A stretch of DNA of 64,000 nucleotides from Bacteroidaceae bacterium (GCA_045594385.1 JAZNYM010000032.1:8339-72338), one strand, 5' to 3'. Positions 13,885 to 63,660 are shown, numbered from the stretch's first letter. The notes: generated from the sequence alone by a model not told the origin. Program-made: numbers and translations.

Positions 13885-13992
13885 GTCAGTACCGATTTTA
13901 GTCACACATAATCGGTACTGCAGTACCACCACGTCGGTACTGCAGTACCGACATGTAGGTATTAGAGTACTGACACGACGGTACTGCACTAT
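13885..13992. repeat. Tandem array with 22-bp period of GGTACTGCAGTACC-type palindromes at a convergent gene junction
   Basis: GGTACTGCA-type cores start at 13914, 13936, 13958 (degenerate) and 13980. gtcggtactgcagtaccgac at 13933-13952 is a perfect 20-bp palindrome. Confidence 0.8.
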
Positions 13993-30264: not shown

Positions 30265-30265
30265 A

Positions 30266-32764
30266 TTACTTTTCAGTAAAGGTTTTGTCACCTCCATCTG
30301 TACGGCCATAGTGACCATAGTGACCATAGTGACCATAACGCCCGTAATGACCATAATGATATGACTGGCGACGTTTGCTCATGTTCACACCGTTCAAGAC
30401 AATATTACAATTAGGCATCTTTTCCTCATTGACCAAACTATTTATCAGCTCAAAATTAACCTTAGGAGAATGGTCAACTCGGGCAACAAACAGGGTAACG
30501 TTTGCCAACTTGGCAATCATTAATGTATCAGATACCAATCCAACTGGTGGTGTATCCATGATAACATAGTCATATTTCTTTGAAAGATAGTCTATTGCCT
30601 TCGGAAGCAAATCACCGCTAAGCAATTCAGCAGGATTAGGAGGTATTATGCCAGCAGGTAACACATCCATATTCTTATGTATTCCAGAAGGTATTATCTG
30701 GCTCTCCAACAATTCATAGTCAGGTTCTAAACCGCATAGGAAATTTACAATGCCTTGCTTGGTCGGTTTCAACCCAAACAATGCCACCAATCTTGGTTTA
30801 CGGATATCCAAACCAACAACCACCACTCTCTTTCCTAAAAGAGCCAATGACATCGCCAAATTGGCAGCCACAAATGTCTTTCCTTCCCCAGGGATAACCG
30901 AAGTTGTCATTATTATGTTCTGACCTGGTTTAAGCACAAAACTGATATTTGTTCTCAAACCTCTAAATGACTCTTCCATAGAATCATTATAATTCTCACG
31001 AACAACAACCGCACGCTCCGCATTCTTACCCGTTTGGTTTTTAATTGCTGGAATATCTGCCAAAATTGGCAACTTAGTGAGACTTTCAACATCCTTACGG
31101 CCTTCAATGCGATAACTTAGCAATTCTCTAAGTAGCATAATACCTATTGGCAAAGCCAAACCGAGTATCAATCCCAGCAGCAGAACCATACTAGTCTTTG
31201 GGCTTACCTTCCCGTTTATGACAGGAGTATCAATCAAGCGTCCCTTAGTTGCTGTGCTGTATAGTTGAATAAAGTTCTCTTCACGCTTTTGCAGCAAAGT
31301 CAAATACAGTTCTGACTGCAAGGTTTGCTGACGTATGATATTTGCCAAAACACGCTCTTGCGTAGGAGTCGCAGAAATACGTCCTGTCACATATTTATAC
31401 TCATCTTCTACGGCTTTTTTCCTTAGTTCTACATTACGACAAATATTCGTCATGTTCTGACGTATGGAGGGCCACATGTCGGAAATTTCGCGAGTCAACT
31501 GTACTACCATTGGATTTTCTTCGCTGCTACCTCTAAGATAACGATTCCTCTTTAGAACCATTTCATTATAACCGGTAATCATCGAAACCAGAGGCGCAAT
31601 AAGAGGAGAATTCTCCAATCCCATATTCGCCGGTATTATCTGGAGGTAGTTTTCCGGATTATCCATGTACTCCATCAACGACTTCAGAACCGTATATTGA
31701 GTTTGTACCTCCAACAAATCTCTCTTGTATTCCGACGATTCTTTAAGAACTGAATTGGCATCGTTGGCGAGGTTAATAAGTTCATTCTTTTTCTTATAAG
31801 ATTCCATATTACCCTCCGTCATATCCAATTCTTGCCTTATGCTAGCCAAACGATCGGAGATGAATTCCTCTGTCTTTCGTGCAATCTCGTTCTTGTCCTC
31901 ATTGGCCTCCTCATTATAGCATACGAACAATTCGTTCAGGAAGTCCAGCGCACGTGTCTTCTTTGTATCCGTCAAGCTTACATTAGCCACAGTTGTCGTC
32001 TTGGCTGTAGCCGTAGCATTCAAAATTTTTGTCGAATACACTCTTCCCACATATTGAGGAGAGTAGATCGCCACGTACAAATCCTTGCCCTTCTTCATCA
32101 ATTCAGTCACCTTTTCCGCATCTAGTTTTGACTGAAGATTTGCAAAATCAGAATTGGCGGTAATCGTAATAACTCCATAAGGAGTTGCAAGCGATGCAGG
32201 CAAAGACGACACGTCGGCACTATAAGTGATTTCATCAGGTTCCAAATGGTTGAAGTATCCGTCAACGTGGTAACCAGAGGTCCCCAAAGCACTTATTCTC
32301 AGGCCAAGCGGAATACTCAAGGTATCTCTGAAACACTTATCCAAATCAATCGAGATAGGACTATTCTTATATAGTTCCTGTTTCTTTACAGTCCCTTCCA
32401 GATAATATCTGACGTACAATTTCAGACGGTCTACCACATCTGAAGATAAAGCCGCACTGCGCAATATTTCCAACTCATTGTCAAAGGCGTCCGAATTTGA
32501 CATCAATCCCATCTCCCCCAGGCTCATACTCATTCCCCTAAAAGCGGAATTCTTCTTATCTGACTCCTTTACCAGAATCTTCATGGATGCAGAATACACT
32601 GGAGAAGTGTATCTCAAATATACCACAGAAATACACAAGCATACCAGCACAGAAAGCAATACCCAATACCAATTGATGAGGACAAGAGCCCAGATTTTCT
32701 TCAAGTCAAAAAGCTCGTTTTCCTCCACTTCATCATACACCTTCTTTTTAACATTTTCTGCCAT
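30266..32764 (-). CDS. wzc: Tyrosine autokinase / polysaccharide co-polymerase (Wzc, PCP2a) with an (H/R)YG-repeat tail
   Basis: Two TM segments flank a coiled-coil. Walker A is SVIPGEGKT and Walker B region VIMDTPPV. The C-terminal tail is YHYGHYGRYGHYGHYGHYGR. ATG at 32764 (the GTG at 32773 is in the track). Confidence 0.9.
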   Translation of the reverse strand: MAENVKKKVYDEVEENELFDLKKIWALVLINWYWVLLSVLVCLCISVVYLRYTSPVYSASMKILVKESDKKNSAFRGMSMSLGEMGLMSNSDAFDNELEILRSAALSSDVVDRLKLYVRYYLEGTVKKQELYKNSPISIDLDKCFRDTLSIPLGLRISALGTSGYHVDGYFNHLEPDEITYSADVSSLPASLATPYGVITITANSDFANLQSKLDAEKVTELMKKGKDLYVAIYSPQYVGRVYSTKILNATATAKTTTVANVSLTDTKKTRALDFLNELFVCYNEEANEDKNEIARKTEEFISDRLASIRQELDMTEGNMESYKKKNELINLANDANSVLKESSEYKRDLLEVQTQYTVLKSLMEYMDNPENYLQIIPANMGLENSPLIAPLVSMITGYNEMVLKRNRYLRGSSEENPMVVQLTREISDMWPSIRQNMTNICRNVELRKKAVEDEYKYVTGRISATPTQERVLANIIRQQTLQSELYLTLLQKREENFIQLYSTATKGRLIDTPVINGKVSPKTSMVLLLGLILGLALPIGIMLLRELLSYRIEGRKDVESLTKLPILADIPAIKNQTGKNAERAVVVRENYNDSMEESFRGLRTNISFVLKPGQNIIMTTSVIPGEGKTFVAANLAMSLALLGKRVVVVGLDIRKPRLVALFGLKPTKQGIVNFLCGLEPDYELLESQIIPSGIHKNMDVLPAGIIPPNPAELLSGDLLPKAIDYLSKKYDYVIMDTPPVGLVSDTLMIAKLANVTLFVARVDHSPKVNFELINSLVNEEKMPNCNIVLNGVNMSKRRQSYHYGHYGRYGHYGHYGHYGRTDGGDKTFTEK

Positions 32765-32930
32765 AATTTCCACTGATTATATTCAATACATTACAACGCA
32801 GCAATATTATACTACGCATTACAACCGCCAAAGTTATGGAATATTTTTCAAATGCACAAGTTTATCAGGCAAAAAGAGTCTCACGCAAAAGAAAAAGAGT
32901 GTTTAATTTTAATTATTCTTCAATATTACC

Positions 32931-37771: not shown

Positions 37772-37860
37772 ATCTTGCTTTTTTTTATCTTTTCACTCCC
37801 CTTCTCGTAAATAGCGGACCGGCTTCGGCTAATATGCAATACATTGTCACTAACCGTTCG

Positions 37861-37948
37861 CCGAAACATCGATAATCGTTCGCCGAAGCATCAGTAATCG
37901 TTCGCCGAACGAACGATAATGATTCACAGGCATCACCGTGAGAGTAAA
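37861..37948. repeat. 22-bp tandem repeat x4 (TAATCGTTCGCCGAAnnATCnn family)
   Basis: Units start at 37861, 37883, 37905 and 37927. The same family, period and copy number occur at 62947-63040. Confidence 0.8.
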
Positions 37949-52656: not shown

Positions 52657-55600
52657 TTACAGAGACCAGTCCTCCTGGGTCTTGCGGATGTATGACTTGT
52701 AGCGGCGCTGTGCTGCAGCCTTACAAGCATCATACAGTTCCTGTGCCTCCTGTGGAGCGGCCTTCTTCAGAGAGAGGAAGCGAACCTCGCCCTCGAGGAA
52801 GTCCTGGAACTTGTCCCATTCGGGCTCCTTGCTGTCCAGCTGGAAGGGGTTCTTGCCCTCTTCGCCCAGAGCGGGATTGTAGCGCCACAAGTGCCAGTAA
52901 CCGCACTCTACAGCCTTGGCCTCCTCGGCCTGGCTCTTGCCCATGCCGCCCTTGGCCTTCAGGCCATGGTTGATACAGGGAGCGTAAGCGATTACCAGTG
53001 AAGGACCGTTCCATGCCTCAGCCTCGCGGAATGCCTTCAGACACTGTGCCTGGTCGGCACCCATAGCCACCTGTGCCACATAAACGTTGCCGTATGTTGC
53101 CTGCATCAGACCCAGATCCTTCTTGCCCACACGCTTGCCGTTGGCAGCAAACTGTGCAATGGCACCGATGGGAGTAGCCTTTGATGCCTGGCCGCCGGTA
53201 TTTGAGTAAACCTCGGTGTCGATGACGAAGATGTTCACGTCCTCGCCTGAACCGATAACGTGGTCCAGACCACCGTAACCGATATCGTAGGAAGCACCGT
53301 CACCACCGATAATCCACTGGCTGCGCTTAACCAGATAGTGATCCAGTTCCTTCAACTGCTGGCAAACGGGGCAACCAGCCTCGGCACCTGCGGCAATCAT
53401 GGGCTTCAGCACTGCTGCCGCTGCCTTAGAGGCACCGGTGTCGTTCTGACCCTCTAACCACTGCTGTGCAGCAGCCTTGAATTCGGCAGGAGTCTCCTCC
53501 GAAGCAATAGCCTCATTAAGCAGGACGTTGATGCGTGCCTTCATCTTCTTGTTGGCCAATACCATACCCAGACCGAACTCGCAGAAGTCCTCGAACAGGG
53601 AGTTTGCCCATGCAGGACCCTGACCTTCGGCATTCTTGGTGTAGGGGGTAGAGGGGATAGAACCGGAGTAGATTGAAGAGCAACCGGTAGCGTTGGCCAC
53701 CATCTGACGGTCACCGAACAACTGGCTGATGAGCTTCACGTAGGGAGTCTCACCACAGCCGGCACATGCACCGCTGAACTCGAACAGAGGCTGTGCAAAC
53801 TGGCTGTTCTTGGGGCTCTGCTTGATGTCCACCAGATGCTGCTTGCTTGTCACCTTCTGCATGAAGTACTTCCAGTCGGCGGCATTCTTCTGAGCCTCCT
53901 CGGAAGAGTCGTCGTAGGCCTTCATTGTCAGAGCCACGCCCTTCTTGGGGTTGCCGGGACAAACGTCGGCACAGTTGCCGCAACCCAGACAGTCCTTGTC
54001 ATCCACAGCGATGACGAAGTGCATGCCCTTCATAGTGGCGGGAGCCTTCATCTCTATGCTCTGGCCCTCGTAGCCTGCCAGTTCCTCGTCGGTCATTACG
54101 ATAGGACGGATAGCGGCGTGAGGACAAACGAATGCACACTTGTTACACTGGATACAGTTCTCGCTGTTCCATACGGGCACAAAGCCGGCAACGCCACGCT
54201 TCTCGTATGCGGCAGTACCCTGCTCCCATGCACCGTCCTCTATGCCCTTGTATGCACTCACGGGCAACAGGTCGCCGTTCTGTGCGTTGATGGGACGTAC
54301 CAAGCTGGTGATGTATTCGGGCTCGTCATACTTGGGAGCCTCGTCGGCAGGCAGGTTCATCCAGGCGGGATCCACGGGCAGAACCTTGTACTCGCCACCG
54401 CGGTCCACGGCAGCATAGTTCATGTTCACCACGTCCTCACCCTTCTTGCCGTAAGACTTCACGATAGCCTTCTTCATCTGCTCTACTGCCAGTTCCACGG
54501 GGATTACCTCGGTAATACGGAAGAATGCAGACTGCAGAATGGTGTTGGTGCGGTTGCCCAGACCAATCTCCTGAGCGATCTTGGTAGCGTTGATATAGTA
54601 AACGGTAATGTTCTTCTCGGCGAAGTACTTCTTCAGGTTGTTGGGGATGAAGTTCACCAGTTCCTCGCCCTCGAAGATGGTGTTCAGCAGGAACTGACCG
54701 CCGGGCTGCAGACCGCGGATAACATCATACATGCGCAGATAAGCCTGAACGTGACATGCCACGAAGTTGGGAGTCTTGATCTGGTATGTGCTGCGGATGG
54801 GAGTGTCGCCGAAGCGCAGGTGAGAACAGGTAAAGCCGCCGCTCTTCTTTGAGTCGTATGAGAAGTAAGCCTGACAGTACTTGTCGGTATTGTCACCGAT
54901 AATCTTCACAGAGTTCTTGTTAGCGCCCACTGTACCGTCGGCACCCAGACCGAAGAACTTGGCCTCGAAGATACCCTTGCCACCCAGCGCCATCTCTTCC
55001 TTCTTGGGCAGAGAGGTGAAGGTAAGGTCGTCCACGATGCCCACGGTGAAGTGGTCCTTGGGCTGAGCCATCTCCAGATTCTCGAATACACCCAGAATCA
55101 TGGTGGGGGTAACGTCGGCACTGCCCAGACCATAGCGGCCGCCCACGATGAGGGGAGCATTCTCCACACCATAGAAGGCATCCTTCACGTCCAGCAACAG
55201 AGGTTCGCCGTTGCTGCCGGGTTCCTTGGTGCGGTCCAGTACGGCAATGCGCTTGCAGCTTGCAGGCACGGCCTTCAGCAGGTGCTTCACAGAGAAGGGA
55301 CGATACAGGTGTACGCTCACCATACCGTACTTCTTGCCGTTGGCGTTAGCATGGTCAATAGCCTCGCGTGCAGCCTCGGTGGCAGAACCCATCAGGATGA
55401 TGATTTCCTCTGCATCCTCTGCGCCATAATATGTAAACAGGTCATACTTGCGGCCTGTGCGCTCGCTGATTGCGGCCATGTACTTCTCCACGATGGCAGG
55501 AACGGCATCGTAGTAGCGGTTGCAGCTCTCGCGGTGAGCGAAGAAGGTCTCGGGGTTCTCTGCCATACCCTTTGCCATGGGGCGTTCGGGTGTCAGTGCA

Positions 55601-56223
55601 CGTGAACGGAACTCGCTCACTGCCTTCATGTCCACCAGGTCGCGAACGTCGTCGTCCTCTATCAGTTCCACCTTCTGGTATTCGTGAGAGGTGCGGAAAC
55701 CGTCGAAGAAGTTGATGAAGGGCACGCGGGCCTCTATGGCAGCCAGATGTGCTACGGCACTCAGGTCCATAACCTCCTGCACGCTACCCTCTGCCAGCAT
55801 GGCGAAACCGGTCTGGCGGCAAGCCATCACGTCGCTGTGGTCACCGAAGATACACAGAGAGTGTGTGGCCACAGTACGTGCGCTCACGTGGAACACGCTG
55901 GGCAGCAACTCGCCGGCTATCTTGTACATATTAGGAATCATCAGCAGCAGACCCTGGCTGGCGGTGAAGGTAGATGTCAGAGCACCTGCCTGCAGAGAGC
56001 CATGCACGGCACCGGCGGCGCCGGCCTCAGACTGCATTTCCTGAACCAGGACTGTATCTCCGAACAGATTCTTTCTGCCCTGTGCAGCCCACTCATCCAC
56101 ATGCTCCGCCATAGGAGACGAAGGAGTGATGGGATAGATGGCGGCAACCTCACTGAACATGTAAGCCACATGTCCGGCACAGGTATTACCGTCCCATGTC
56201 ACAAATTTCTTTTCTTTTGCCAT
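52657..56223 (-). CDS. nifJ: Pyruvate:ferredoxin (flavodoxin) oxidoreductase
   Basis: 1188 aa. Two ferredoxin-type 4Fe-4S motifs (CIQCNKCAFVCPH and CLGCGNCADVCP), a TPP-binding GDG region (IIGGDGASYDIGYGGLD), and colinearity with PFOR throughout. Confidence 0.95.
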   Translation of the reverse strand: MAKEKKFVTWDGNTCAGHVAYMFSEVAAIYPITPSSPMAEHVDEWAAQGRKNLFGDTVLVQEMQSEAGAAGAVHGSLQAGALTSTFTASQGLLLMIPNMYKIAGELLPSVFHVSARTVATHSLCIFGDHSDVMACRQTGFAMLAEGSVQEVMDLSAVAHLAAIEARVPFINFFDGFRTSHEYQKVELIEDDDVRDLVDMKAVSEFRSRALTPERPMAKGMAENPETFFAHRESCNRYYDAVPAIVEKYMAAISERTGRKYDLFTYYGAEDAEEIIILMGSATEAAREAIDHANANGKKYGMVSVHLYRPFSVKHLLKAVPASCKRIAVLDRTKEPGSNGEPLLLDVKDAFYGVENAPLIVGGRYGLGSADVTPTMILGVFENLEMAQPKDHFTVGIVDDLTFTSLPKKEEMALGGKGIFEAKFFGLGADGTVGANKNSVKIIGDNTDKYCQAYFSYDSKKSGGFTCSHLRFGDTPIRSTYQIKTPNFVACHVQAYLRMYDVIRGLQPGGQFLLNTIFEGEELVNFIPNNLKKYFAEKNITVYYINATKIAQEIGLGNRTNTILQSAFFRITEVIPVELAVEQMKKAIVKSYGKKGEDVVNMNYAAVDRGGEYKVLPVDPAWMNLPADEAPKYDEPEYITSLVRPINAQNGDLLPVSAYKGIEDGAWEQGTAAYEKRGVAGFVPVWNSENCIQCNKCAFVCPHAAIRPIVMTDEELAGYEGQSIEMKAPATMKGMHFVIAVDDKDCLGCGNCADVCPGNPKKGVALTMKAYDDSSEEAQKNAADWKYFMQKVTSKQHLVDIKQSPKNSQFAQPLFEFSGACAGCGETPYVKLISQLFGDRQMVANATGCSSIYSGSIPSTPYTKNAEGQGPAWANSLFEDFCEFGLGMVLANKKMKARINVLLNEAIASEETPAEFKAAAQQWLEGQNDTGASKAAAAVLKPMIAAGAEAGCPVCQQLKELDHYLVKRSQWIIGGDGASYDIGYGGLDHVIGSGEDVNIFVIDTEVYSNTGGQASKATPIGAIAQFAANGKRVGKKDLGLMQATYGNVYVAQVAMGADQAQCLKAFREAEAWNGPSLVIAYAPCINHGLKAKGGMGKSQAEEAKAVECGYWHLWRYNPALGEEGKNPFQLDSKEPEWDKFQDFLEGEVRFLSLKKAAPQEAQELYDACKAAAQRRYKSYIRKTQEDWSL

Positions 56224-56296
56224 TGTTATTGTTGTTTTATCGTCAGGCCCCAGGCCTGATAACGGTTAATAATTGTTTTCTTATCTTTTTGGCCAT

Positions 56297-56390
56297 CTAG
56301 AACACCTAGAAAGACTAGAAGTTCTAGAAAGTCTAGGATGTCTAGGAAGACTAGGATGTCTAGGAAGACTAGGAAGTCTAGTTCCTCTAG
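56297..56390. repeat. CTAG array: 11 CTAG cores on a strict 9-bp register
   Basis: CTAG starts at 56297 plus 9n for n = 0..10, counted by hand. The last CTAG contains the TAG stop of the AAA ATPase gene. Confidence 0.9.
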
Positions 56391-57568
56391 TAGATCAGCC
56401 CGAACATCCACAAGGGAATCTCCTGTCCCTCTCCTTCCTTTTTGTCGGTACTCACGTATATCACGTCTGTCGACCTCCTTTTGGGAATCTCATCCAGTAT
56501 CCGGAACCTATACTTGTCATCCAGTATGAATGTACAGGACCTGTCACCCACACTCACCTTGTGTTTCGGACTTGTGGCACTCTGGAAGAATGTCTCTATC
56601 ATGTCCTGCCTGTTCACTTGTCCCGGTGTCATCACATGCATCAGATTGGTATTGTGCATCATCAGACGCACAGGCTTCTTTGGGAATCCCTCACCTCTGC
56701 GATATAGCATATTCAGCAATCGCGCGTCACCCAGAAATTTGATATAGTTCATTATCGTGGTCCGCGAAGTCTGGACCTCCAAAGCCAGCTGGCTCACATT
56801 GGGGGTTCCTGTACCACCCGTAGCCAACAGGAAAAACAGTTTCTTTATTCTGTTGAGGTTCTTCTGCTCCATCTGGTATATGAGCAGCACATCCACCTCT
56901 ATCATCATGTTCATCGTCTTCAGCAGGTTCTCGCTGAAATTCCTTTTGTTCAGGAAAAACGGATAATAGCCATGATGCAGATATGCCTCGAAGTAATCCA
57001 GCGGATTGCAGCGTGCACAAATCTCCTTGGCAATACGCTCATGGCGGTTCTGCAGTTCTCTCAGCGTGACGGGTCTGATATCTGTACCTGCCTTTATATT
57101 CAGGAACTCACGGAAAGAAAAACCTCTCAGGCTATAACTCCGGCATATTCCGTTCAGTTCGGGATTTTCGTCCTTCAGCCTCATCACTGTGCTGCCTGTG
57201 AATACTATGCGGAGCATGGGATATTTCTCGTAGCACTCGTGCAGCACATGGCTCCAGTTGGACACCTTGAATATCTGATCTATCAGCAACACCTGTCCTC
57301 CGGCCCTATAGAAGTCTCCAGCAAACTTCAGCAAACTGTAGGTCTGGAAAAAGAAGTTGTTCATATTGATGTACAAACATCTCTTGTCGTTGGCCGTATA
57401 GTTTTCTTTTGCATATTGTAGCAGGAAAGTTGTCTTTCCCACTCCACGGCTGCCCTTTATTCCAATCAGGCGGTCACGCCAATTTATCTCGTCCATCAAC
57501 GCACGATGCACGGGCTCTCCCAGATGTTCCAGCAAATACCGATGTGTTCTGAATAGGGTCTCCAACAT
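56387..57568 (-). CDS. AAA-family ATPase with a DUF4143-type C-terminal domain
   Basis: Walker A GSRGVGKTT and Walker B LLIDQI. 393 aa. This architecture is common in Bacteroidota (AAA_14 plus DUF4143, from memory). Confidence 0.75.
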   Translation of the reverse strand: MLETLFRTHRYLLEHLGEPVHRALMDEINWRDRLIGIKGSRGVGKTTFLLQYAKENYTANDKRCLYINMNNFFFQTYSLLKFAGDFYRAGGQVLLIDQIFKVSNWSHVLHECYEKYPMLRIVFTGSTVMRLKDENPELNGICRSYSLRGFSFREFLNIKAGTDIRPVTLRELQNRHERIAKEICARCNPLDYFEAYLHHGYYPFFLNKRNFSENLLKTMNMMIEVDVLLIYQMEQKNLNRIKKLFFLLATGGTGTPNVSQLALEVQTSRTTIMNYIKFLGDARLLNMLYRRGEGFPKKPVRLMMHNTNLMHVMTPGQVNRQDMIETFFQSATSPKHKVSVGDRSCTFILDDKYRFRILDEIPKRRSTDVIYVSTDKKEGEGQEIPLWMFGLIY

Positions 57569-57671
57569 ACTTGCAAGTTGTATTTACATGTAACCGACAC
57601 ATATTTTACGCAGACAAAGATACACTTTTTTTGTTTAATTGCAAAGTAGAAGTGACAAAAAAGATAAAAAC

Positions 57672-57905
57672 GTGAAGAGGTGAGAGGTGAGAGGTGAGCG
57701 GTGAGAGGTGAGCGGTGAGCGGTGAGCGGTGAGAGGATGAGAGGATGAGAGGTGAGAGGTGAGCGGTGAGAGGATGAGAGGATGAGAGGTGAGCGGTGAG
57801 CGGTGAGCGGTGAGCGGATGAGCGGATGAGCGGATGAGCGGAAACCTGAAACTTGAAACCTGAAACTTGAAACCTGAAACCTTCAACCAGTAACCTTCAC
57901 CGTTC
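57672..57905. repeat. Composite 7-bp arrays: (GGTGAGN/GGATGAG) about 24 units, then (CTGAAAC/TTGAAAC) about 6 units
   Basis: Read directly from the sequence. It is the reverse complement in type of 60820-61114. The mtgA stop (57897-57899) lies in the last degenerate unit, cggtgaagg. Confidence 0.9.
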
Positions 57906-58592
57906 AAATTCCACTTTCCCGATATTCCTCATCTGGCGCATTATCTGTGTCTGTCTGCGCAGCATATATGGCGAAGGGTCCTTTGAACTGAACTTCAACG
58001 GGTTCGGCAGCGTGGCGGCTATCAGGGCACAGTTGGCCCGTGTCAGTCGGTCGGCTCCGCGTCCGAAGTTTTGCCATGCCACGGCATCGGCACCATATAT
58101 GCCGTCTCCCATCTCTATGCTGTTCAGGTACACCTCCATTATGCGGTGTTTGTCCCACATCAGTTCTATCAGTATGGTAAAGTATGCTTCCAGTCCTTTT
58201 CTGAACCATCCTCCTCCGGGCCACAGGAACACGTTCTTTGCCGTCTGCTGCGATATTGTGCTGGCGCCTCGTCTGCGCTTTCCACTCTGTCTCTCGTCCC
58301 AGGCCTTGGATATGGCGTCAAAGTCGAAGCCGTTATGCGTCATGAACCTTTGGTCTTCGCTTGCCACCACGGCAAGAGCCAGGTCGGGTGTCATGCCCTT
58401 GTCCATCTCCACCCAATGGTGCTTCAGGCGTATTTTCTCGCCCCTGCCCATCTGCTGGCAGCAACGTATCAACATCAGTGGCGTCACCTGCACCGGCAAC
58501 CACCTGTATGCCAGCACCGCCAGTATGGAACTGAGGAAAAACAGTCCCACTATCCAACGGAGTATATTGCGCAGTCGTGTAAATATCTTCAT
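57897..58592 (-). CDS. mtgA: Monofunctional peptidoglycan glycosyltransferase
   Basis: [26 protein letters not shown] and [27 protein letters not shown] motifs of the GT51 family. 231 aa. Confidence 0.92.
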
Positions 58593-58613
58593 AAAGCAAT
58601 CTTTTAGAAAAGC

Positions 58614-58707
58614 CTAGAATATCTAGAATATCTAGAGAGACTAGAAAGACTAGAAGGACTAGAAGGACTAGATTGTCTAGATTGTCTAGATTGTCTAGAA
58701 AACCTAG
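58614..58707. repeat. CTAG array: 11 CTAG cores on a strict 9-bp register (twin of 56297-56390)
   Basis: CTAG starts at 58614 plus 9n for n = 0..10, counted by hand. It fills the gap between the GH20 stop and the mtgA start. Confidence 0.9.
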
Positions 58708-58721
58708 CCCCCCAGTCCCTC

Positions 58722-60815
58722 CTACTCCCTTTCCTTATCAGGAGAGTAGATCAGTCCTTCCACGGCATTCCTGCCCTCCAGGTCCGTGAGCACGAAGGTA
58801 AACATCCACTTGTCCAGTCGGTATCCTGCATTCACGTAGGGCAGTTTCAGGAACACCTTGTTCCAACCCTTGTTCAGTGTCACTGCTATGGGTTTGCGGG
58901 CAGGGAAGTTCTCGTTCTTCAGTTCCACCTCCTTGTTGCTTATGGCCACACCGGCATTCTCATAGTCGGGAGCCTCTATTTCCTCACCGTTTACCCATAT
59001 TCTGGAGCCATACAGGTCCCAGTTGCCTGCCGTGGGGGCCGGGTCCTGCTCCGAGCGGCTGTAGTTCTGGAACTCTATCACGGCACCCACCTCCTGCTTC
59101 TTCTTGCTGTAGACGTATGTCCAGGCGTATGCAGTGTTGTTGAACGAGGGCGACTCGTAGTAGGCCTTTATGATGCTGTGCCCCCATGTGTGTCTCAGGT
59201 ATATGCCGGCACCCGTGGCCACTCCTGTGCCGTAGGTTTTGCCCTCGTGTGTGAAAGTGTTGGGGATGTTGCACATCGCGCATGTTGTGGCATGCTTCTC
59301 CGGAGCGAACTCTGCGGCGTTGTTGCCGCCGTTGGGGAAGGCATCCGTTATGCGCCAGCGTACGTTGGTCTGTTTCACGTATGGTATGGGCTCGTCCTTC
59401 AGCGCATGTGCCTTATGGAACAGGAAGCGGCGCTCCCAGTCGCGGAACTCATCGTACTCCTCGCCGCTGTTGGGCAGCATCACGCCGCCACCGCCGTTCG
59501 TGCCACCGTTGTTGCAGTTGTCTATGTAGCGTTTGCCTCCGCCCACCCAGGCGCGTTCTGCCGTGGCAATCACGTTGGCCCACACGTTGTTCTGCGCCAT
59601 GATATCCTCCTCGGTGGAGAGTTTGCGGTCGTTCCAGCAACCGGAGACGGCACCTGCCACCTCGGCATCGCCCTTCTCCTTATAATATATATTGCTCTTG
59701 AAGATGCCCACCAGGTCGGCAAACACGTCGAAGTGGTTGGTGTAGTTGTATCGGCTGTCTATGTTGGCCTTGCCCCCGGCAAAGTAACCGCGTGTACCCC
59801 ACATCTGTGTCAGCGAGGCGTTCAGGCTCTTCTGTCCTATGCCGTTGATGGGGTTCCATATCTCTGCCTTCTTGCCCTTGCTCTCCACATAGGCAATCAT
59901 TTCGTTCAGGTAGGCGGCAGTCGTGCTCACCTCGTCACCGCCAATGTGTATGTAGGGTGCATCGGCAAAGACCTCTGCCACCTCGTCCAGCACCTTCTTC
60001 AGCACAGCTTTTCCTTCGGCGCTCTGCATGTCAAAGCCCATGGCACGCCTGAAGGCCGCGCTGTGTCCCGGCATGTCTATCTCGGGGATAACCGTTACGC
60101 CGTGCTTCTTGGCAGCCTCCATCACCTTGCGGCAGTCCTCCTGTGTGTAGTACTGGCCGGCGAAGCGAGTCATGGACTCGGCAGAGGTAAGTTGCGGATA
60201 AGCCTTCACCTCGAAGCGCCATGCCTGGTTCTCTGTCATGTGCCAATGGAAAGTGTTCACCTTGAAGCGCGAGAACAATTCTATCTGCCTTACCAGTTCC
60301 CCGGCGCTGATGAACGAGCGGCCCACATCGTGCATGTATCCGCGCAACTTGAATGCCGGCCAGTCCGTCATCTTCACGGCCTCCAGGGCGGGCTTGCCCT
60401 TCCATCCCTCTGCCATCTGCACCAGTGTCTGTGTTGCGCGTATCACACCGGTGGGCGTTACCGCTGTGATGTTTATGGCCTCCGGTGTCACCTCCAGGGT
60501 GTAGGCCTCGTTCTCGTATCCGTACAGTTCATAGTCGTATGCGCCTTCTATGCTCTTCACCATGCTCACGTTCACAGCCTTGCCGCCACTTGGCACCAGT
60601 TTGCAACCGTTGCTGGTCAGGAACTCCTCCAGCAGGGCACATGCTTTTGCCCCGTTGGCATAGTTTATGCTTACTTTGCCCTTCAGTTTGAAGGCCGCCA
60701 CGTTTTCCGTGGCAGTAATCTGTTGTGGACGTGGCAGTATGTGCTGCACCTTTGCCTGTAATGCCGATGGCACCAGCGACATCATCATTGCCGTTACAAG
60801 TAGAGTCTTTTTCAT
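58722..60815 (-). CDS. Beta-N-acetylhexosaminidase (GH20)
   Basis: Signal peptide present. GH20 catalytic region YIHIGGDEV, HWHMTENQAWR and IPEIDMPGHS. 697 aa. Confidence 0.92.
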   Translation of the reverse strand: MKKTLLVTAMMMSLVPSALQAKVQHILPRPQQITATENVAAFKLKGKVSINYANGAKACALLEEFLTSNGCKLVPSGGKAVNVSMVKSIEGAYDYELYGYENEAYTLEVTPEAINITAVTPTGVIRATQTLVQMAEGWKGKPALEAVKMTDWPAFKLRGYMHDVGRSFISAGELVRQIELFSRFKVNTFHWHMTENQAWRFEVKAYPQLTSAESMTRFAGQYYTQEDCRKVMEAAKKHGVTVIPEIDMPGHSAAFRRAMGFDMQSAEGKAVLKKVLDEVAEVFADAPYIHIGGDEVSTTAAYLNEMIAYVESKGKKAEIWNPINGIGQKSLNASLTQMWGTRGYFAGGKANIDSRYNYTNHFDVFADLVGIFKSNIYYKEKGDAEVAGAVSGCWNDRKLSTEEDIMAQNNVWANVIATAERAWVGGGKRYIDNCNNGGTNGGGGVMLPNSGEEYDEFRDWERRFLFHKAHALKDEPIPYVKQTNVRWRITDAFPNGGNNAAEFAPEKHATTCAMCNIPNTFTHEGKTYGTGVATGAGIYLRHTWGHSIIKAYYESPSFNNTAYAWTYVYSKKKQEVGAVIEFQNYSRSEQDPAPTAGNWDLYGSRIWVNGEEIEAPDYENAGVAISNKEVELKNENFPARKPIAVTLNKGWNKVFLKLPYVNAGYRLDKWMFTFVLTDLEGRNAVEGLIYSPDKERE

Positions 60816-60819: not shown

Positions 60820-61114
60820 GGTTAAAGTTTCAAGTTTAAGGTTTCAAGTTTCAAGGTTTCAGGTTTCAAGTTTCAAGTTTCTGGTTTAAAGTTTTAGGTT
60901 TCCGCTCATCCGTTCACCGCTCACCGCTCATCCGCTCACCGCTCACCGCTCACCGCTCACCGGTTTCAAGTTTCAAGTTTCTGGTTTAAAGTTTAAGGTT
61001 TCCGCTCATCCGCTCACCACTCATCCGCTCACCGCTCATCCGCTCATCCGCTCATCCGCTCATCCGCTCACCGTTTATCGCTCACCGCTCACCGCTCACC
61101 GTTTATCGCTCACC
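60820..61114. repeat. Composite 7-bp arrays in duplicate: (GTTTCAA) then (GCTCACC/GCTCATC), twice
   Basis: GTTTCAA-type at 60824-60900 and 60962-61000. GCTCACC-type at 60901-60961 and 61001-61114. It covers the last 6 codons and the stop of the S24 gene. Confidence 0.9.
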
Positions 61115-61929
61115 GCCTGTGCAATTTTTACGTACTCCTCGAAGCGTATTCCTGTCACGGGGGCATTGTTTATATTCCATTGGTTTACAGGCCTGCAAAA
61201 GCTGCCAACAGCCATGCGCCTCATGGCATCCACCGTCGGTAGGCTGGGATGCTCCGGAACAGCTCTGGCAACCATGTCCACAAAGGTGGCGTACATCTCC
61301 GACTCACACAGTCCCATGTCCACCAATGCCCTGTACACGGCATACCAATGACGTGAATTGCGTACCATGGGAGCCGCCTTGCATATCAGCGGACCGGGAT
61401 CGTCCATGGGTTTGTCTTCTGGCGTTTCAGCAGCCTTAAGCACCCGCATTATACTGGCATGGCTATAGCGTGGAGCATCCTTTGTCACTTTCACCACCTT
61501 TCCCACTATCCTCACGTCCATGTCTTCCGTCAGCCTGATTGGTTTGTAGGCTTCGTTGGCCGGCACCAGCCAGCATTGTCCGTTCTCATCGCGGAAGAAA
61601 GCCTTCAGCGTAAACTCTCCGTCTATGGCGGCCACCACTATGTCACCGTCATCTGCACAGGGACCGGATTTTATCTGGAGCTTGTCGCCGGGCATGATGC
61701 CTATGTCCGTCATCGAGTTGCCTGTCACGTCCACGCTGAAAGTGATTCCCAGATTCAGGAAACTCTTGGACAAGAACAAACATTCATCCCTTGGAATATC
61801 TCCGCACACGGTGGGAGTGCCGGCCCTCACGGCCTGGTTCATGTCTGGAACGGGTATATTGCAGAGTTCGGGGTTAATCACATCGCCCTGCATCTCTCCC
61901 AGTATTTCCTTCAGTTCTTCGTCTGTCAT
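61096..61929 (-). CDS. UmuD/LexA-type S24 self-cleaving peptidase domain fused to an unrecognised C-terminal domain
   Basis: A RAG/TP candidate Ala-Gly cleavage site, a GNSM Ser nucleophile, a Lys in FTLKAF, and GDIVVAAIDGEFTLK. The start is set to MTDEEL (61929) because upstream codons are repeat-derived. Confidence 0.7.
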   Translation of the reverse strand: MTDEELKEILGEMQGDVINPELCNIPVPDMNQAVRAGTPTVCGDIPRDECLFLSKSFLNLGITFSVDVTGNSMTDIGIMPGDKLQIKSGPCADDGDIVVAAIDGEFTLKAFFRDENGQCWLVPANEAYKPIRLTEDMDVRIVGKVVKVTKDAPRYSHASIMRVLKAAETPEDKPMDDPGPLICKAAPMVRNSRHWYAVYRALVDMGLCESEMYATFVDMVARAVPEHPSLPTVDAMRRMAVGSFCRPVNQWNINNAPVTGIRFEEYVKIAQAVSDKR

Positions 61930-61933
61930 GGTA

Positions 61934-62024
61934 ATCGGGTTTCGGGTTTGAGGTTTCAAGTTTCAAGTTTAAGGTTTTAGGTTTCAGGTTTCAAGTTTCA
62001 GGCTTCAGGTTTCAGGTTTCAGGT
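61934..62024. repeat. GTTTCAN 7-bp array filling the S24/four-helix-bundle intergenic gap
   Basis: tcgggtttcgggtttgaggtttcaagtttcaagtttaaggttttaggtttcaggtttcaagtttcaggcttcaggtttcaggtttcagg. It supplies the TGA stop of the four-helix-bundle gene. Confidence 0.9.
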
Positions 62025-62406
62025 ATTTGGAGCCGGTAATGGAGCTCTTCTTTAAGCTTTTTATAAAAGCTGCAATTGCGCTGCTCAGTTCCAGACATAC
62101 GTTATACAATCTCTTTGCATCCGTGTTATTGAGGAAATTTGTATCTGATGCTCTGATAATTTGCGAGCGGACTTCCCCACACGAACCTTTTGCCACATAA
62201 AGAAACTGTATAAACTCCTTGTTCCCGTCTCGCTCAAACCCTTCTGCGATATTATCCATGACACTTCCTGCAGCTGCACGAATCTGTTGTACGAACCGCG
62301 TGTCCGTTTTCCATGGTTGGGTTTCGGTATGAAGATAAACTTCCTGACACAACTCCCTTGCCATCTGCCAAATCCGTAATTCCTCAAATCTTTCAACCAC
62401 TGCCAT
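62005..62406 (-). CDS. Four-helix-bundle protein (23S rRNA intervening-sequence protein / Avd-like family)
   Basis: F.ELRIWQ.AREL...VY......P.......QIR.AA.SV..NIAEGF.R....EF..FL..A.GS..EV..Q is the family signature (TIGR02436-type, from memory). 133 aa. Confidence 0.85.
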   Translation of the reverse strand: MAVVERFEELRIWQMARELCQEVYLHTETQPWKTDTRFVQQIRAAAGSVMDNIAEGFERDGNKEFIQFLYVAKGSCGEVRSQIIRASDTNFLNNTDAKRLYNVCLELSSAIAAFIKSLKKSSITGSKYLKPET

Positions 62407-62424
62407 AGTTTTGTTATTAGATTA

Positions 62425-62632
62425 GTTTAAGGTTTCTGGTTTCAAGTTTCAAGTTTCTGGTTTCAAGTTTCTGGTTTCAAGTTTCTGGTATGCCTCTTGC
62501 TCTGTTATCATGAGATGCCCTTACGCTCCTTGGCTTCTTGAAACTTGAAACTTGAAACATGAAACCTATAATTTGTACTTCCTTGACTTCTTGAAACATG
62601 AAACTTGAAACTTGAAACTTGAAACATGAAAC
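62425..62632. repeat. Inverted 7-bp arrays: left arm (GTTTCAA/GTTTCTG), right arm (TTGAAAC/ATGAAAC) duplicated
   Basis: Left arm 62425-62489. Right arms 62536-62566 and 62589-62632, each preceded by a cttccttgrcttc-like motif. Confidence 0.85.
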
Positions 62633-62725
62633 TAGAGCCTCCACGCTCCTTTTCTCCCCGCAAATTTACTTTTTTTATTCCACATCACCAAAATTTTGGG
62701 ACATCTTGTAGTAAAACGGCAATTC

Positions 62726-62892: not shown

Positions 62893-62946
62893 AAACATTG
62901 TTACTACAGAATCAAAAGACCTCCCCCATGGCACTGTCATTTTATC

Positions 62947-63040
62947 ATCGGTAATGGTAAATTTTGCCATCGGTGACGGTAAATCTCACCATCGGTAATC
63001 GTTCGCCGAACGATCGGTAATGATTCGCCTTCATCATCGT
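62947..63040. repeat. 22-bp tandem repeat x4 (CATCGGTAATnGTTCGCCGAA family)
   Basis: Units start at 62947, 62969, 62991 and 63013. 62993-63045 is nearly colinear with 37905-37950. Confidence 0.8.
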
Positions 63041-63060: not shown

Positions 63061-63625
63061 AATAGGAAGGTTTAAAGTTTAAAGTTTCAGGTTTCAGGTT
63101 TCTCGCTACTTTGTCCCTCTGAGACAGGGGGACGAGGAACAAAGTTCCGGAGGGGGTATGATAAGTACTGCTGTCAGGCTTCATCGTTCATCGTTCTTTT
63201 ACAGACCCCTCAGCCCTTCGGGCACCTCGCCCTAACTTAGGGGAGGAAAGGGGGAGGGGGGGGCAAGTTTCAGGTTTAAGGTATCCGCTCAGCACTTCCC
63301 GGTTTAAGGTTTCAGGTTTCAAGTTTCAAGTTTAAGGTATCCGCTCAGCGCTTCCCGGTTTAAGGTTTCAGGTTTCAAGTTTCAAGTTTAAGGTATCCGC
63401 TCAGCGCTTCCAAGTTTAAGGTTTCAAGTTCGCTAAGGCCTTAAACCCGAAACATGAAACATGAAACTCCAAACCTGAAACATGAAACCTGAAACATGAA
63501 ACCTGAAACTCCAAACCCGAAACATGAAACTTGAAACATGAAACTTGAAACTCCAAACTCTAAACCCGAAACTTGAAACCTGAAACCTGAAACTTTAAAC
63601 CTGAAACTTTAAACTCCAAACCCGA
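63061..63625. repeat. Large composite: GTTTMAR arrays, hairpin module, G-rich tract, 56-bp tandem repeat x about 2.7, then an inverted (nTGAAAC) arm
   Basis: gtccctctgagacagggggac occurs near 63106-63130. gtatccgctcagc recurs at 63281, 63337 and 63393 (56-bp spacing). The symmetry centre AAGGCCTT is at 63435-63442. The GAAAC-type arm runs 63443-63625. Confidence 0.85.
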
Positions 63626-63660
63626 AACAAAACCGCCGAGGTTTTTCGAACCCCGGCGGC
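63625..63660 (-). terminator. Rho-independent terminator of the small-peptide gene
   Basis: On the minus strand, gccgccgggg ttcgaaaaa cctcggcgg is followed by ttttgtttcgggttt. Confidence 0.65.

What the first reader, a model, noticed from the sequence alone, without database searches (positions are those of the whole stretch)
56297..56390. Two CTAG arrays, each with exactly 11 CTAG cores at a strict 9-bp spacing
Seen directly:
- 56297-56390 and 58614-58707 each contain 11 CTAG tetranucleotides whose starts are exactly 9 bp apart, with no register slip over 94 bp.
- The 5-nt fillers differ between arrays (ctagaaaga/ctaggatgt versus ctagaatat/ctagattgt). In both arrays they are mostly purine-rich on the + strand.
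- Array A ends in the TAG stop of the AAA ATPase gene and lies in the nifJ upstream region. Array B fills the GH20-mtgA gap.

Established: CTAG is among the most under-represented tetranucleotides in many bacterial genomes.

Inference: identical copy number and length with divergent filler suggests selection on the periodic CTAG lattice, for example as a protein-binding or methylation-target array, rather than recent duplication or free slippage.
Basis: partly seen in the sequence, partly recalled or inferred. Interest (0 to 1): 0.7.

Follow-up and report, generated by a model that had tools for sequence, protein, structure and literature searches.

The report
Hypervariable tandem repeats with fixed CTAG core
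The two arrays are real, but they are not a fixed 11-site lattice: they belong to a widespread and apparently undescribed kind of fast-changing tandem repeat in gut and rumen Bacteroidales, in which the rare palindrome CTAG is kept intact in every 8-10 bp unit, even inside enzyme genes, while the bases between diverge.

Summary
Observation confirmed. CTAG occurs 11 times at exact 9-bp spacing at 56297-56390 and at 58614-58707. These arrays hold 22 of the window's 47 CTAGs.

Interpretation partly supported.
- Copy number is not constrained. Elsewhere it runs from 3 to 20, and 11 is rare.
- Orthologous arrays in relatives have 3-6 intact cores. Strains with 98-100% identical flanks differ by whole units.
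- The period is not fixed either: 8, 9 and 10 bp all occur, sometimes within one array.
- So slippage-type gain and loss of units is active.

Filler identity is about 0.5 here, against 0.92 in ordinary CTAG-containing repeats. The same arrays sit in frame inside enzyme domains. In GluQRS genes 35 of 39 cores are intact although CTAG's T is a synonymous third position and four-fold sites are only 45-73% identical.

Best explanation (inferred): a self-perpetuating repeat in which only units bounded by intact, self-complementary CTAG get re-copied. Binding by a CTAG-specific protein or methylase remains a live rival. I found no literature describing these arrays.

The parts
56297..56390 (.). CTAG-core array A: 11 CTAG at 9-bp spacing, 10 fillers (8 distinct), consensus CTAGGAAGT on the + strand
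   Evidence: It lies between the AAA_14 stop and the nifJ leader. Its last core supplies the TAG stop of the AAA_14 gene. Relatives have TAA at the same codon, followed by about 18 nt and then a shorter array.
58614..58707 (.). CTAG-core array B: 11 CTAG at 9-bp spacing, 10 fillers (6 distinct, with runs of identical neighbours AATATx2, AAGGAx2, ATTGTx3)
   Evidence: It lies between the GH20 stop and the mtgA start. A TTAG sits 10 bp before the first core (58604-58607, read). No array is present at this spacer in any relative examined.
56387..57568 (-). AAA_14 ATPase gene whose stop codon is the outermost core of array A
   Evidence: ORF. Pfam AAA_14, E=1.6e-23. The mtgA-AAA_14-nifJ synteny is kept in relatives.
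52657..56223 (-). nifJ / pyruvate:ferredoxin oxidoreductase, the gene downstream of array A
   Evidence: ORF. Pfam POR_N, PFOR_II, POR, EKR, Fer4 and TPP_enzyme_C.
56224..56279 (-). Conserved nifJ leader with hairpin (tcaggcc-cc-aggcctga, 56243-56259). It marks the boundary that array A does not cross.
   Evidence: The sequence is conserved in all relatives while the array next to it differs.
57897..58592 (-). mtgA (monofunctional peptidoglycan transglycosylase), the gene downstream of array B
   Evidence: ORF. Pfam Transgly, E=5e-44. Best homologues are 87% identical and come from uncultured Bacteroidaceae MAGs.
58722..60815 (-). GH20 hexosaminidase gene upstream of array B. Its TAG stop is 18 nt from, and in frame with, the first TAG of the array.
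   Evidence: ORF. Pfam Glyco_hydro_20 and 20b. Frame relation.
57679..57896 (.). Neighbouring 7-bp arrays (GGTGAGN x about 22, GAAACCT x about 6) in the mtgA-AAA_14 spacer. They have the same 'invariant core plus variable positions' build.
   Evidence: Relatives carry different heptamers at the same spacer.

Best explanation
Arrays A and B are two members of a family of hypervariable short tandem repeats ('CTAG-core arrays') that is common in gut and rumen Bacteroidales. The window comes from an uncultured Bacteroidaceae lineage.

Anatomy. A unit is an invariant, self-complementary CTAG (often TCTAGA) plus 4-6 rapidly diverging filler bases.

Behaviour.
- Arrays gain and lose whole units by slippage or unequal exchange.
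- They occupy DNA that tolerates them: the spacer just after a stop codon and before the next gene's leader or promoter, or, for the 9-bp form only, in-frame loops inside proteins.
- In the window they act as spacers. Array A has grown up to the AAA_14 gene and provides its stop codon. Array B fills the GH20-mtgA gap.
- The shared count of 11 is a coincidence of two independently drifting arrays.

Why CTAG is kept (inferred, not shown). Unit turnover depends on the core. Only units bounded by intact CTAG are re-copied. A unit with a mutated core can no longer be copied, freezes at the array edge and decays. Filler changes do not affect copying, so they accumulate.

Favoured sub-mechanism. CTAG-N4-6-CTAG is a minimal hairpin with a 4-bp stem and a 4-6 nt loop. 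A whole array folds as a string of core-core helices in single-stranded DNA. These structures would stabilise slipped replication intermediates. This would also account for the period being restricted to 8-10 bp.
For: What is shown:
- The class exists and is widespread. About 96 of the 120 loci are Bacteroidales, and the rest include Kiritimatiellae, Verrucomicrobia and Victivallales.
- It is distinct from ordinary repeats. Median filler identity is 0.59 in these arrays, 0.92 in viral-contig arrays found with the same pattern, and 0.46 and 0.52 in the window.
- Whole-unit turnover occurs. Identical filler pairs make up 18% within arrays and 0.5% between loci. Strains L132, L134 and L294 have 98-100% identical flanks but differ by 9-bp units. 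L129 has 7 units and L293 has 10.
- Decayed cores sit at the edges. The next lattice point beyond an array is a one-mismatch CTAG variant (CTGG, TTAG, ATAG, CCAG, CTAA) in 36 of 134 cases, against about 5% by chance. In L129 and L293 the flanking ATAG, ATAG and CTAA units are shared while the intact central units differ.
- Arrays die. L122 and L123 keep only ATAG x4 at the orthologous site.
- The constraint is at DNA level, not protein level. Arrays lie inside Pfam domains: GH95, GH106, an MGH1-like GH, DUF6298 and tRNA-synt_1c.
- GluQRS orthologues, found by protein homology and not by CTAG search, have 14/14, 13/16 and 8/9 intact cores. Four-fold synonymous sites in those genes are only 0.45-0.73 identical.
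- Periods are confined to 8-10 bp, apart from a single 7-bp run; none were seen at 5, 6 or 11-14 bp.
- The arrays have folding potential. As RNA, array B gives -36.0 and -32.7 kcal/mol (z -4.2 and -4.8) with cores pairing with cores. As ssDNA, array A gives -15.8 and array B -13.9 kcal/mol (z -2.1 and -3.3).
- Position fits tolerated spacer DNA. The median distance is 15 bp to the upstream stop and 41 bp to the downstream start. Contexts are 66 co-directional, 15 convergent and 6 divergent.
Against: - The hairpin step is weak. The helices are only 4-6 bp long and are separated by 3x3 to 5x5 internal loops.
- Array A's fold is not clearly better than shuffles (z -1.6 to -2.1), and its centroid structures are nearly open.
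- Fillers show no complementarity. Reverse-complement pairs are 0.32% within arrays and 0.48% between loci, so nothing selects for a stronger stem.
- The T-CTAG-A preference (filler position 1 is A in 61%, position 5 is T in 48%) also appears in 8-bp arrays. There a 6-bp stem would leave an impossible 2-nt loop. This looks more like sequence recognition by a protein or enzyme.
- The 7-bp arrays of the same genome keep a non-palindromic core (AAAC x27), which a self-hairpin cannot explain.
- Arrays within one genome share period and filler flavour (window; L129; L096). This needs an extra process such as ectopic exchange or a common recognition factor.
- No mutation-rate data exist.
Confidence: 0.45

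Rival explanations
1. One reading: the CTAG (or TCTAGA) sites are recognised one by one by a sequence-specific dimeric DNA-binding protein or a CTAG methyltransferase. Organism-level selection for dense binding or modification patches keeps the cores.
For: - The core is palindromic and tends to extend to TCTAGA, including in 8-bp arrays where a hairpin cannot use the extension.
- CTAG is otherwise strongly avoided.
- Arrays within one genome share period and filler flavour.
- An array has persisted at the AAA_14-to-nifJ spacer through several species-level lineages.
Against: - The period varies from 8 to 10 bp within genomes and within single arrays (L026, L045, L070, L100). A phased cooperative lattice is therefore unlikely.
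- Copy number is unconstrained and polymorphic between strains.
- Arrays sit inside catalytic domains of unrelated enzymes, where a regulatory binding patch makes little sense.
- Arrays are lost without replacement (L122/L123) or are lineage-specific (array B).
- At homologous gene ends, different repeat families substitute for one another: heptamers in the window and 10-bp CTAG arrays in L129.
Confidence: 0.2
2. Footprint of a CTAG-specific nuclease. Nicks on opposite strands at neighbouring CTAG sites give 8-10 nt overhangs. Fill-in and rejoining then duplicates exactly one unit and regenerates both cores. Sloppy fill-in diversifies the filler. Restriction pressure also explains CTAG avoidance elsewhere in the genome.
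For: - Core-bounded whole-unit duplications occur.
- The spacing is restricted to 8-10 bp.
- CTAG is depleted genome-wide outside arrays.
- The arrays are spread across unrelated phyla that share the gut and rumen habitat, as expected for horizontally moving restriction-modification genes.
- There is a TCTAGA bias.
- From my own knowledge, not tested here: CTAG-cutting enzymes such as BfaI come from Bacteroides, and paired nicks leaving 5' overhangs give tandem duplications.
Against: - No nuclease or methylase gene was identified; the window's ORFs were only partly scanned.
- Simple cut-and-religate predicts units in both orientations, and this is not seen.
- It does not explain the GTTT/AAAC heptamer lattices.
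Confidence: 0.15
3. A functional structured RNA or DNA element at gene 3' ends, comparable to REP/BIME. The core-core helices would form a beaded hairpin in the transcript that protects the upstream mRNA end, insulates cistrons or aids termination.
For: - Arrays hug upstream stop codons (median 15 bp) and are rare in divergent gaps (6 of 87).
- Array B RNA folds with z -4.2.
- The heptamer arrays of the window form long inverted-pair hairpins (z -9.3).
- The element reads the same on either strand, which fits the lack of a consistent strand bias.
Against: - There is no compensatory pairing in the fillers.
- The fold of array A is weak.
- No terminator-like site lies at either array, and there is no Rfam match.
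- The same arrays occur inside coding regions.
- Arrays are gained and lost between close relatives.
Confidence: 0.12
4. An ordinary neutral microsatellite or minisatellite with no special constraint on CTAG. The invariant core and the shared count of 11 are both chance.
For: Tandem repeats of many kinds are abundant in this window, and arrays clearly evolve by duplication.
Against: - Filler identity of 0.46-0.52 alongside 22 of 22 intact cores is incompatible with position-independent mutation.
- More than 65 arrays in other genomes show the same contrast.
- CTAG is kept at synonymous sites across diverged orthologues.
Confidence: 0.03

Closest known systems
Long simple sequence repeats / VNTR-type short tandem repeats of prokaryotes (the Mrazek et al. 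survey, as summarised in PMC4679880)
   Same: Both are head-to-tail units of 5-11 bp. Unit number is polymorphic between strains. Both are mostly intergenic, and only units that are multiples of 3 are tolerated in genes. Slippage is the accepted mechanism.
   Different: Ordinary arrays are near-homogeneous: filler identity is 0.92 in my control set. Here only a 4-bp palindromic core is homogeneous and the rest of the unit is about 50% identical. The period can change within an array.
Intergenic TAACTGA heptamer direct repeats of Beggiatoaceae, Cyanobacteria and some Bacteroidetes (MacGregor 2015, PMC4679880), and cyanobacterial STRR heptamers
   Same: Both are genome-wide families of short direct repeats at gene boundaries. 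Their phylogenetic spread is patchy and looks horizontal. They contain stop codons and sometimes overlap the upstream stop. Their function is unknown.
   Different: Those repeats are exact heptamers placed mostly just upstream of start codons. The CTAG arrays have a palindromic core with variable filler and a period of 8-10 bp. They lie nearer the upstream stop and also sit in frame inside proteins.
REP/BIME extragenic palindromes of enterobacteria
   Same: Both are extragenic and lie after stop codons. Both are self-complementary, have a conserved tetranucleotide and are dispersed in many copies.
   Different: REPs are imperfect palindromes of about 35 bp mobilised by RAYT transposases. They are not 9-bp tandem units and are not found in coding sequence. 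No RAYT was looked for or found here.
Rickettsia palindromic elements (RPE), selfish repeats inserted in frame in protein genes (from my own knowledge)
   Same: Both are non-coding-type repeats found in intergenic DNA and also in frame inside conserved enzymes, where they add surface loops.
   Different: RPEs are dispersed elements of 100-150 bp, not tandem arrays. The CTAG arrays vary in unit number at a given site.
TRAP binding site in the Bacillus trp leader (11 (G/U)AG triplets) and HutP UAG repeats (from my own knowledge)
   Same: The window arrays also contain 11 UAG-bearing repeats in a row on either transcript strand.
   Different: TRAP sites have 2-3 nt spacers, not 6 nt, and lie in 5' leaders. 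The number 11 is not conserved in other CTAG arrays. The arrays also occur in coding DNA.

Membership tests
Short tandem repeat / VNTR (LSSR) | Head-to-tail copies of one short unit | tested here: met
   TRF reports period 9 at both sites. The register is exact over 94 bp.
Short tandem repeat / VNTR (LSSR) | Unit number varies between close relatives by whole units | tested here: met
   L132, L134 and L294 have 98-100% identical flanks but differ by 9-bp indels. L129 has 7 units and L293 has 10. GluQRS arrays have 9, 14, 16 and 9 units.
Short tandem repeat / VNTR (LSSR) | Units homogeneous over their whole length (concerted evolution) | tested here: not met
   Filler identity is 0.46 and 0.52 in the window and 0.59 at the median in Bacteroidales. 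It is 0.92 in control arrays. The core is 100%.
Phase-variable contingency locus | Tract length change shifts a reading frame or the spacing of promoter elements | tested here: not met
   The unit is 9 bp, which preserves frame. The arrays lie after stop codons and outside the conserved leader or promoter. No promoter-like site spans them. That scan uses a sigma-70 model, so the evidence is weak for Bacteroidales.
CRISPR array | Repeats of about 23-50 bp separated by unique spacers of similar length, usually with cas genes | tested here: not met
   The 'repeat' is 4 bp and the 'spacer' is 5 bp. Fillers recur within arrays. Flanking genes are GH20, mtgA, AAA_14 and nifJ.
REP/BIME | Imperfect palindrome of about 35 bp forming a stable stem-loop | tested here: not met
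   Only the 4-6 bp cores pair. Fillers are not complementary. The fold z-score for array A is -1.6 to -2.1.
REP/BIME | Extragenic, at 3' ends of genes | tested here: inconclusive
   Most arrays lie close to the upstream stop. However, at least 7 sit inside Pfam-supported coding regions, five of them within a domain envelope and two in the ABC-F inter-domain linker.
REP/BIME | Associated RAYT (Y1 transposase) in the genome | not testable with these tools
   Only a 64-kb window of the genome is available.
TRAP-type (G/U)AG RNA operator | 11 triplets with 2-3 nt spacers in a regulated 5' leader | tested here: not met
   Spacers are 6 nt. The arrays lie between a stop codon and the next gene. Copy number elsewhere is 3-20.
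Iteron / centromere-like protein-binding array (parC, omega heptads) | Array of near-identical binding sites next to partition or replication genes, with constant phasing | tested here: not met
   The context is chromosomal housekeeping genes. Phasing varies from 8 to 10 bp. Protein binding itself is not testable with these tools.
Methylation-target cluster | CTAG modified in vivo | not testable with these tools
   This needs SMRT or nanopore data from a carrier strain.

The most novel reading that the evidence does not exclude
CTAG-core arrays are a distinct class of self-propagating micro-element driven by a CTAG-specific factor, either a nuclease or nickase, or a binding or modifying protein. 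That factor regenerates the core each time a unit is copied. This lets the arrays spread and persist in intergenic DNA and in frame inside enzyme genes of gut Bacteroidales and PVC bacteria. It also ties them to the long-known avoidance of CTAG in bacterial genomes.
Probability: 0.25. Interest if true: 0.8.

Novelty: new variant of a known kind. Interest (0 to 1): 0.6.

Why it matters
CTAG is one of the most avoided words in bacterial DNA, yet here it is the single invariant feature of hundreds of arrays. It is preserved even at silent codon positions inside enzymes. That points to a DNA-level process that acts specifically on CTAG in abundant gut and rumen bacteria. The process could be mutational drive, a nuclease or a binding protein.

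If understood, it would bear on four things:
- Why CTAG is rare in bacterial genomes.
- How hypervariable Ser/Arg- or Leu/Glu-rich loops arise in proteins.
- Why short-read assemblies of these organisms break at such sites. The window's AAA_14 gene sits alone on a 1.4-kb Logan contig that stops 18 bp past the gene's end, where array A lies in the window.
- A source of strain-typing markers.

For the two genes next to the arrays, the practical message is modest. The arrays are variable spacers, not a conserved regulatory lattice.

Tried and rejected
1. Fixed copy number of 11. Rejected by the copy-number table, the orthologous arrays and the GluQRS arrays.
2. A strict 9-bp lattice as the functional unit. 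Rejected: 8- and 10-bp CTAG arrays exist, sometimes joined to 9-bp ones, and the window's own relatives use 10 bp.
3. In-vivo cut-and-religate shuffling at CTAG. This predicts units in both orientations. Reverse-complement filler pairs are not enriched: 0.32% against 0.48%.
4. A wall of in-frame backup TAG stops, or seeding at TAG stop codons. Only a marginal in-frame excess was found (32/68, p=0.02). There is no excess of TAG stops (14/68 against 22% overall). Coding arrays cannot act as stops.
5. An RNA motif with a fixed orientation relative to transcription, such as a Rho loading site. Purine bias on the sense strand is inconsistent: 14 arrays below 0.4 and 22 above 0.6.
6. A known RNA family. 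The only Rfam hit is sub-threshold and lies outside the arrays.
7. An intrinsic terminator or sigma-70 promoter at the arrays. None was found.
8. CRISPR, TRAP and iteron membership. See the membership table.
9. Ordinary repeats that merely contain CTAG. The viral-contig control shows what those look like.
10. Literature. Six full-text searches found nothing on CTAG arrays. The nearest paper is PMC4679880.
11. The metagenome scan with the nifJ-leader pattern returned 37 loci, of which only 2 were relevant.

Full report
**Observation**

Both arrays are exactly as described. CTAG starts at 56297, 56306 ... 56387 and at 58614, 58623 ... 58704, giving 11 cores each with every step 9 bp (sequences). 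Tandem Repeats Finder sees period 9 at both places.

The window has 47 CTAGs, and 22 of them are in the arrays. The remaining 25 compare with 246 expected from base composition and 91 from a Markov estimate. CTAG is therefore strongly avoided everywhere except in the arrays.

The fillers differ between and within arrays. The consensus is CTAGGAAGT for A and CTAGAATGT for B. The four core columns are 100% conserved and the five filler columns 50-100%. Fillers are about 70% purine on the + strand.

**Context in the window**

All four genes are on the minus strand: GH20 (58722-60815), mtgA (57897-58592), an AAA_14 ATPase (56387-57568) and nifJ/PFOR (52657-56223).
- Array A runs from the ATPase stop, whose TAG is the outermost core, to 73 bp before the nifJ ATG.
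- Array B fills 94 of the 129 bp between GH20 and mtgA.
- The third spacer of this gene row, between mtgA and AAA_14, is filled with 7-bp arrays.
- Much of the window's intergenic DNA is short tandem repeats.

MtgA's best database matches are 87% identical and come from uncultured 'Bacteroidaceae bacterium' MAGs.

**The same kind of array elsewhere**

I scanned one genome per species for six CTAGs at 9-bp spacing. About 96 of the 120 loci are Bacteroidales from rumen or gut: Prevotella, Bacteroidaceae, Muribaculaceae, Paludibacteraceae and Porphyromonadaceae, including four cultured strains. Most of the rest are Kiritimatiellae, Verrucomicrobia, Victivallales and Lentisphaeria.

A few hits in other phyla are plain perfect repeats that happen to contain CTAG. 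The same pattern in viral contigs gave mostly such perfect repeats, which makes a useful control. Median pairwise filler identity is 0.92 in the viral set, 0.59 in the genome set, and 0.46 and 0.52 in the window.

The Bacteroidales arrays are thus a distinct class: the core is invariant and the filler is nearly free (for example L011 and L046).

**Copy number and period are not fixed**

Strict 9-bp runs in those loci have this distribution of core counts: 6 (57), 7 (20), 8 (17), 9 (13), 10 (9), 11 (2), 12 (5), 13 (3), 14 (2), 15 (2) and 20 (1). Runs of 3-5 cores also occur as by-catch.

CTAG arrays with 8-bp periods occur in the same loci: 21, 19 and 14 copies in L026. Some arrays switch from 9 to 10 bp or from 9 to 8 bp midway (L045, L070, L100). 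One 7-bp run was seen. No runs were seen at periods of 5, 6 or 11-14 bp.

**Evolution of the window's own arrays**

The mtgA-AAA_14-nifJ synteny is kept in relatives whose MtgA is 80-88% identical. The AAA_14-to-nifJ spacer carries a CTAG-type array in every lineage examined, but never the same one:

| Loci | Array at the AAA_14-to-nifJ spacer |
|---|---|
| L132, L294 | 3 CTAG + 2 TTAG, 9 bp |
| L134 | ATAG + 3 CTAG + 2 TTAG, 9 bp |
| L126-128 | 4 CTAG + ATAG + TTAG, 10 bp |
| L129 | ATAG, ATAG, CTAA, 3 CTAG, ATAG, 10 bp |
| L293 (relative of L129: spacer flanks and nifJ side near-identical, AAA_14 side 66-82% in places) | same decayed edge units as L129, with 6 CTAG and one TTAG in the centre |
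| L122, L123 | only ATAG x4 |

L132, L134 and L294 are 98-100% identical in their flanks yet differ by whole 9-bp units. In these relatives the ATPase ends in TAA at the codon where the window has TAG. In the window the array has therefore grown right up to the gene.

Array B has no counterpart in any relative. The nifJ leader with its hairpin is conserved next to this variable stretch.

**Arrays inside genes**

In a crude ORF map, 35 arrays lay inside long ORFs. Several of these are genuine in-frame inserts that give [SPTA]-[SR]-x or L-[ED]-x peptide repeats. Some lie within Pfam domain envelopes: GH95, GH106, an MGH1-like GH, DUF6298 and tRNA-synt_1c. Others lie in the ABC-F linker.

The GluQRS case is the most informative.
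- Most homologues have a short loop, GKILDEMEKNTP.
- A subclade has a hypervariable Ser/Leu/Arg repeat of about 8-45 residues at that spot.
- I fetched the DNA of orthologues found by protein homology, which avoids CTAG ascertainment. It shows 14/14, 13/16 and 8/9 intact CTAG cores at 9-bp spacing.
- An empty-site orthologue has no CTAG there.
- In this reading frame the T of CTAG is a third codon position.
- Four-fold synonymous sites elsewhere in these genes are only 0.45-0.73 identical.

Protein-level selection therefore cannot explain the conserved core. The constraint acts on the DNA.

**What keeps CTAG: tests run**

- Duplication is real and direct. 18% of within-array filler pairs are identical, against 0.5% between loci. 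Reverse-complement pairs are not enriched, at 0.32% against 0.48%. This rejects orientation-free cut-and-religate.
- Cores do decay, mainly at array edges. The next lattice point is a one-mismatch variant in 36 of 134 cases.
- Arrays sit nearer the upstream stop (median 15 bp) than the downstream start (41 bp). They are rare between divergent genes.
- Fourteen arrays supply the stop codon. Among the others, TAG is in frame with the upstream stop only marginally more often than chance (32/68, p=0.02). TAG stops are not enriched. A 'stop wall' is not supported.
- Filler strand bias relative to transcription is inconsistent, which argues against an oriented RNA motif.
- The core tends to extend to TCTAGA: A follows it in 61% of units and T precedes it in 48%.
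- Because the core is self-complementary, an array folds as a chain of core-core helices. As RNA, array B gives -36.0 and -32.7 kcal/mol (z -4.2 and -4.8), while array A reaches only z -1.6 to -1.9. As ssDNA, the arrays give -15.8 and -13.9 kcal/mol.
- There is no Rfam family and no terminator-like site at either array.

**The same architecture in the heptamers**

The window's 7-bp arrays also keep one 4-mer invariant while other positions vary. AAAC occurs x27 at 63443-63632, and GTTT x9 elsewhere. GTTT and AAAC arrays occur as inverted pairs that fold into long hairpins (62415-62645, z -9.3).

Different repeat families occupy homologous positions in different lineages.
- An S24 peptidase gene ends in CCGCTCA heptamers in the window. 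Its 52%-identical homologue in L129 ends in a 10-bp CTAG array.
- The mtgA-AAA_14 spacer carries different heptamers in different relatives.

These spacers therefore tolerate or attract arrays of any family. That speaks against a CTAG-specific regulatory role at these sites.

**Explanation**

Shown: the arrays are hypervariable tandem repeats. They have an invariant palindromic core, variable filler, variable copy number and a period of 8-10 bp. They live in tolerated DNA, and the core is held by a DNA-level constraint.

Inferred: the constraint comes from core-dependent turnover.
- Units bounded by intact CTAG are the ones that get re-copied.
- Units with a mutated core stop being copied, are stranded at the edges and decay.
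- Filler mutations are invisible to the process.

The favoured trigger is hairpin-assisted slippage, because CTAG-N4-6-CTAG is a 4-bp stem with a 4-6 nt loop, which matches the period range. The hairpins are weak, however, and the TCTAGA preference in 8-bp arrays hints at recognition by a protein.

I give core-dependent turnover 0.45 overall. The rivals are:
- a CTAG-binding or CTAG-modifying protein: 0.20;
- CTAG-nuclease nick-and-repair footprints: 0.15;
- a REP-like structured 3'-end element: 0.12;
- a plain neutral repeat: 0.03.

The shared count of 11 has no support from any other locus. It is best read as coincidence. One caveat applies: short-read assemblies under-represent long arrays, and I could not see the rest of this genome.

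**Comparison and novelty**

The arrays behave like prokaryotic long simple sequence repeats or VNTRs. They resemble the intergenic TAACTGA and STRR heptamer families (PMC4679880) in being genome-wide, gene-boundary repeat families of unknown function. They fail the homogeneity expected of ordinary tandem repeats. They are not CRISPR, REP/BIME, TRAP sites or iterons (see the membership table). Their in-frame presence in enzymes recalls Rickettsia palindromic elements.

Six literature searches found no description of CTAG-core arrays. I rate them a new variant of a known kind.

**Limits**
- Gene maps in the fetched loci come from a crude ORF caller.
- No methylation, expression or mutation-rate data were available.
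- Only 64 kb of the source genome could be examined.

Noticed in passing
window 57841-57896, 60825-61002, 61938-62024, 62425-62633, 63068-63102, 63264-63632: These are 7-bp lattices in which only GTTT (or AAAC on the other strand) is invariant and the other 3 positions vary. One has up to 27 units (63443-63632). The 'core plus filler' build is the same as in the CTAG arrays, but the core is not palindromic.
   Followed up: partly
window 62415-62645 and 63264-63632: GTTT-type and AAAC-type heptamer arrays occur as inverted pairs around a short spacer. The first pair folds into one long hairpin (ssDNA -48 kcal/mol, z -9.3).
   Followed up: partly
window 57679-57841 versus 60902-61116: (GGTGAGN)n and its reverse complement (CCGCTCA)n flank the 3-kb segment that holds mtgA, array B and GH20. 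Long inverted repeat arrays like these could allow inversion of the segment. In relatives GH20 is 1833-2034 aa, against 697 aa here.
   Followed up: no
window 61096-62406; L129 234-1939: An S24/LexA-like peptidase gene and a 23S_rRNA_IVP (four-helix-bundle) gene are each boxed in by tandem arrays: heptamers in the window and 10-bp CTAG arrays in L129. The layout looks cassette-like.
   Followed up: partly
window 30306-30359: (CCATAATGA)x6 lies in the 89-bp overlap of two long minus-strand ORFs (27904-30354 and 30266-32773). On the minus strand each unit carries an ATG, and the downstream ORF starts inside the array.
   Followed up: no
window 1833-1877 and 5787-5831: Two further 9-bp arrays without CTAG are present: TCAGAGTAA and GATTACTCG. 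They are roughly reverse complements of each other. Both sit in repeat-rich spacers together with GGTGAGC and GTTTTCC heptamers.
   Followed up: no
window 13912-13988, 37851-37920, 62939-62999: There are three 22-bp tandem repeats of about 3 copies each, with internally palindromic units such as TCGGTACTGCAGTACCGACACG.
   Followed up: no
window about 1770-1795, 3375-3400, 63105-63135: Small dispersed G/C-rich hairpin elements (gtccccctgtctcagggggac and variants) occur in intergenic DNA. They look REP-like.
   Followed up: no
window 57575-57660 (minus strand); same region in L122-L134: A Bacteroides-type promoter (TTTG ... TAtcTTTG) upstream of the AAA_14 gene is conserved in all relatives. It lies downstream of the heptamer arrays, so the arrays occupy the stretch between the upstream stop and the next promoter.
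   Followed up: partly
L001 (Logan SRR24653680 contig, 1361 bp): The only public contig encoding the window's exact AAA_14 protein is 1.4 kb long. It starts about 160 bp upstream of the gene and stops 18 bp past its end, where array A lies in the window. This suggests that short-read assemblies fragment at these repeats.
   Followed up: no
P0121-P0240 (GluQRS homologues): Protein lengths range from 285 to 355 aa, partly because of a hypervariable Ser/Leu/Arg loop encoded by a CTAG array. The repeat creates protein-length polymorphism in a conserved tRNA-modifying enzyme.
   Followed up: yes
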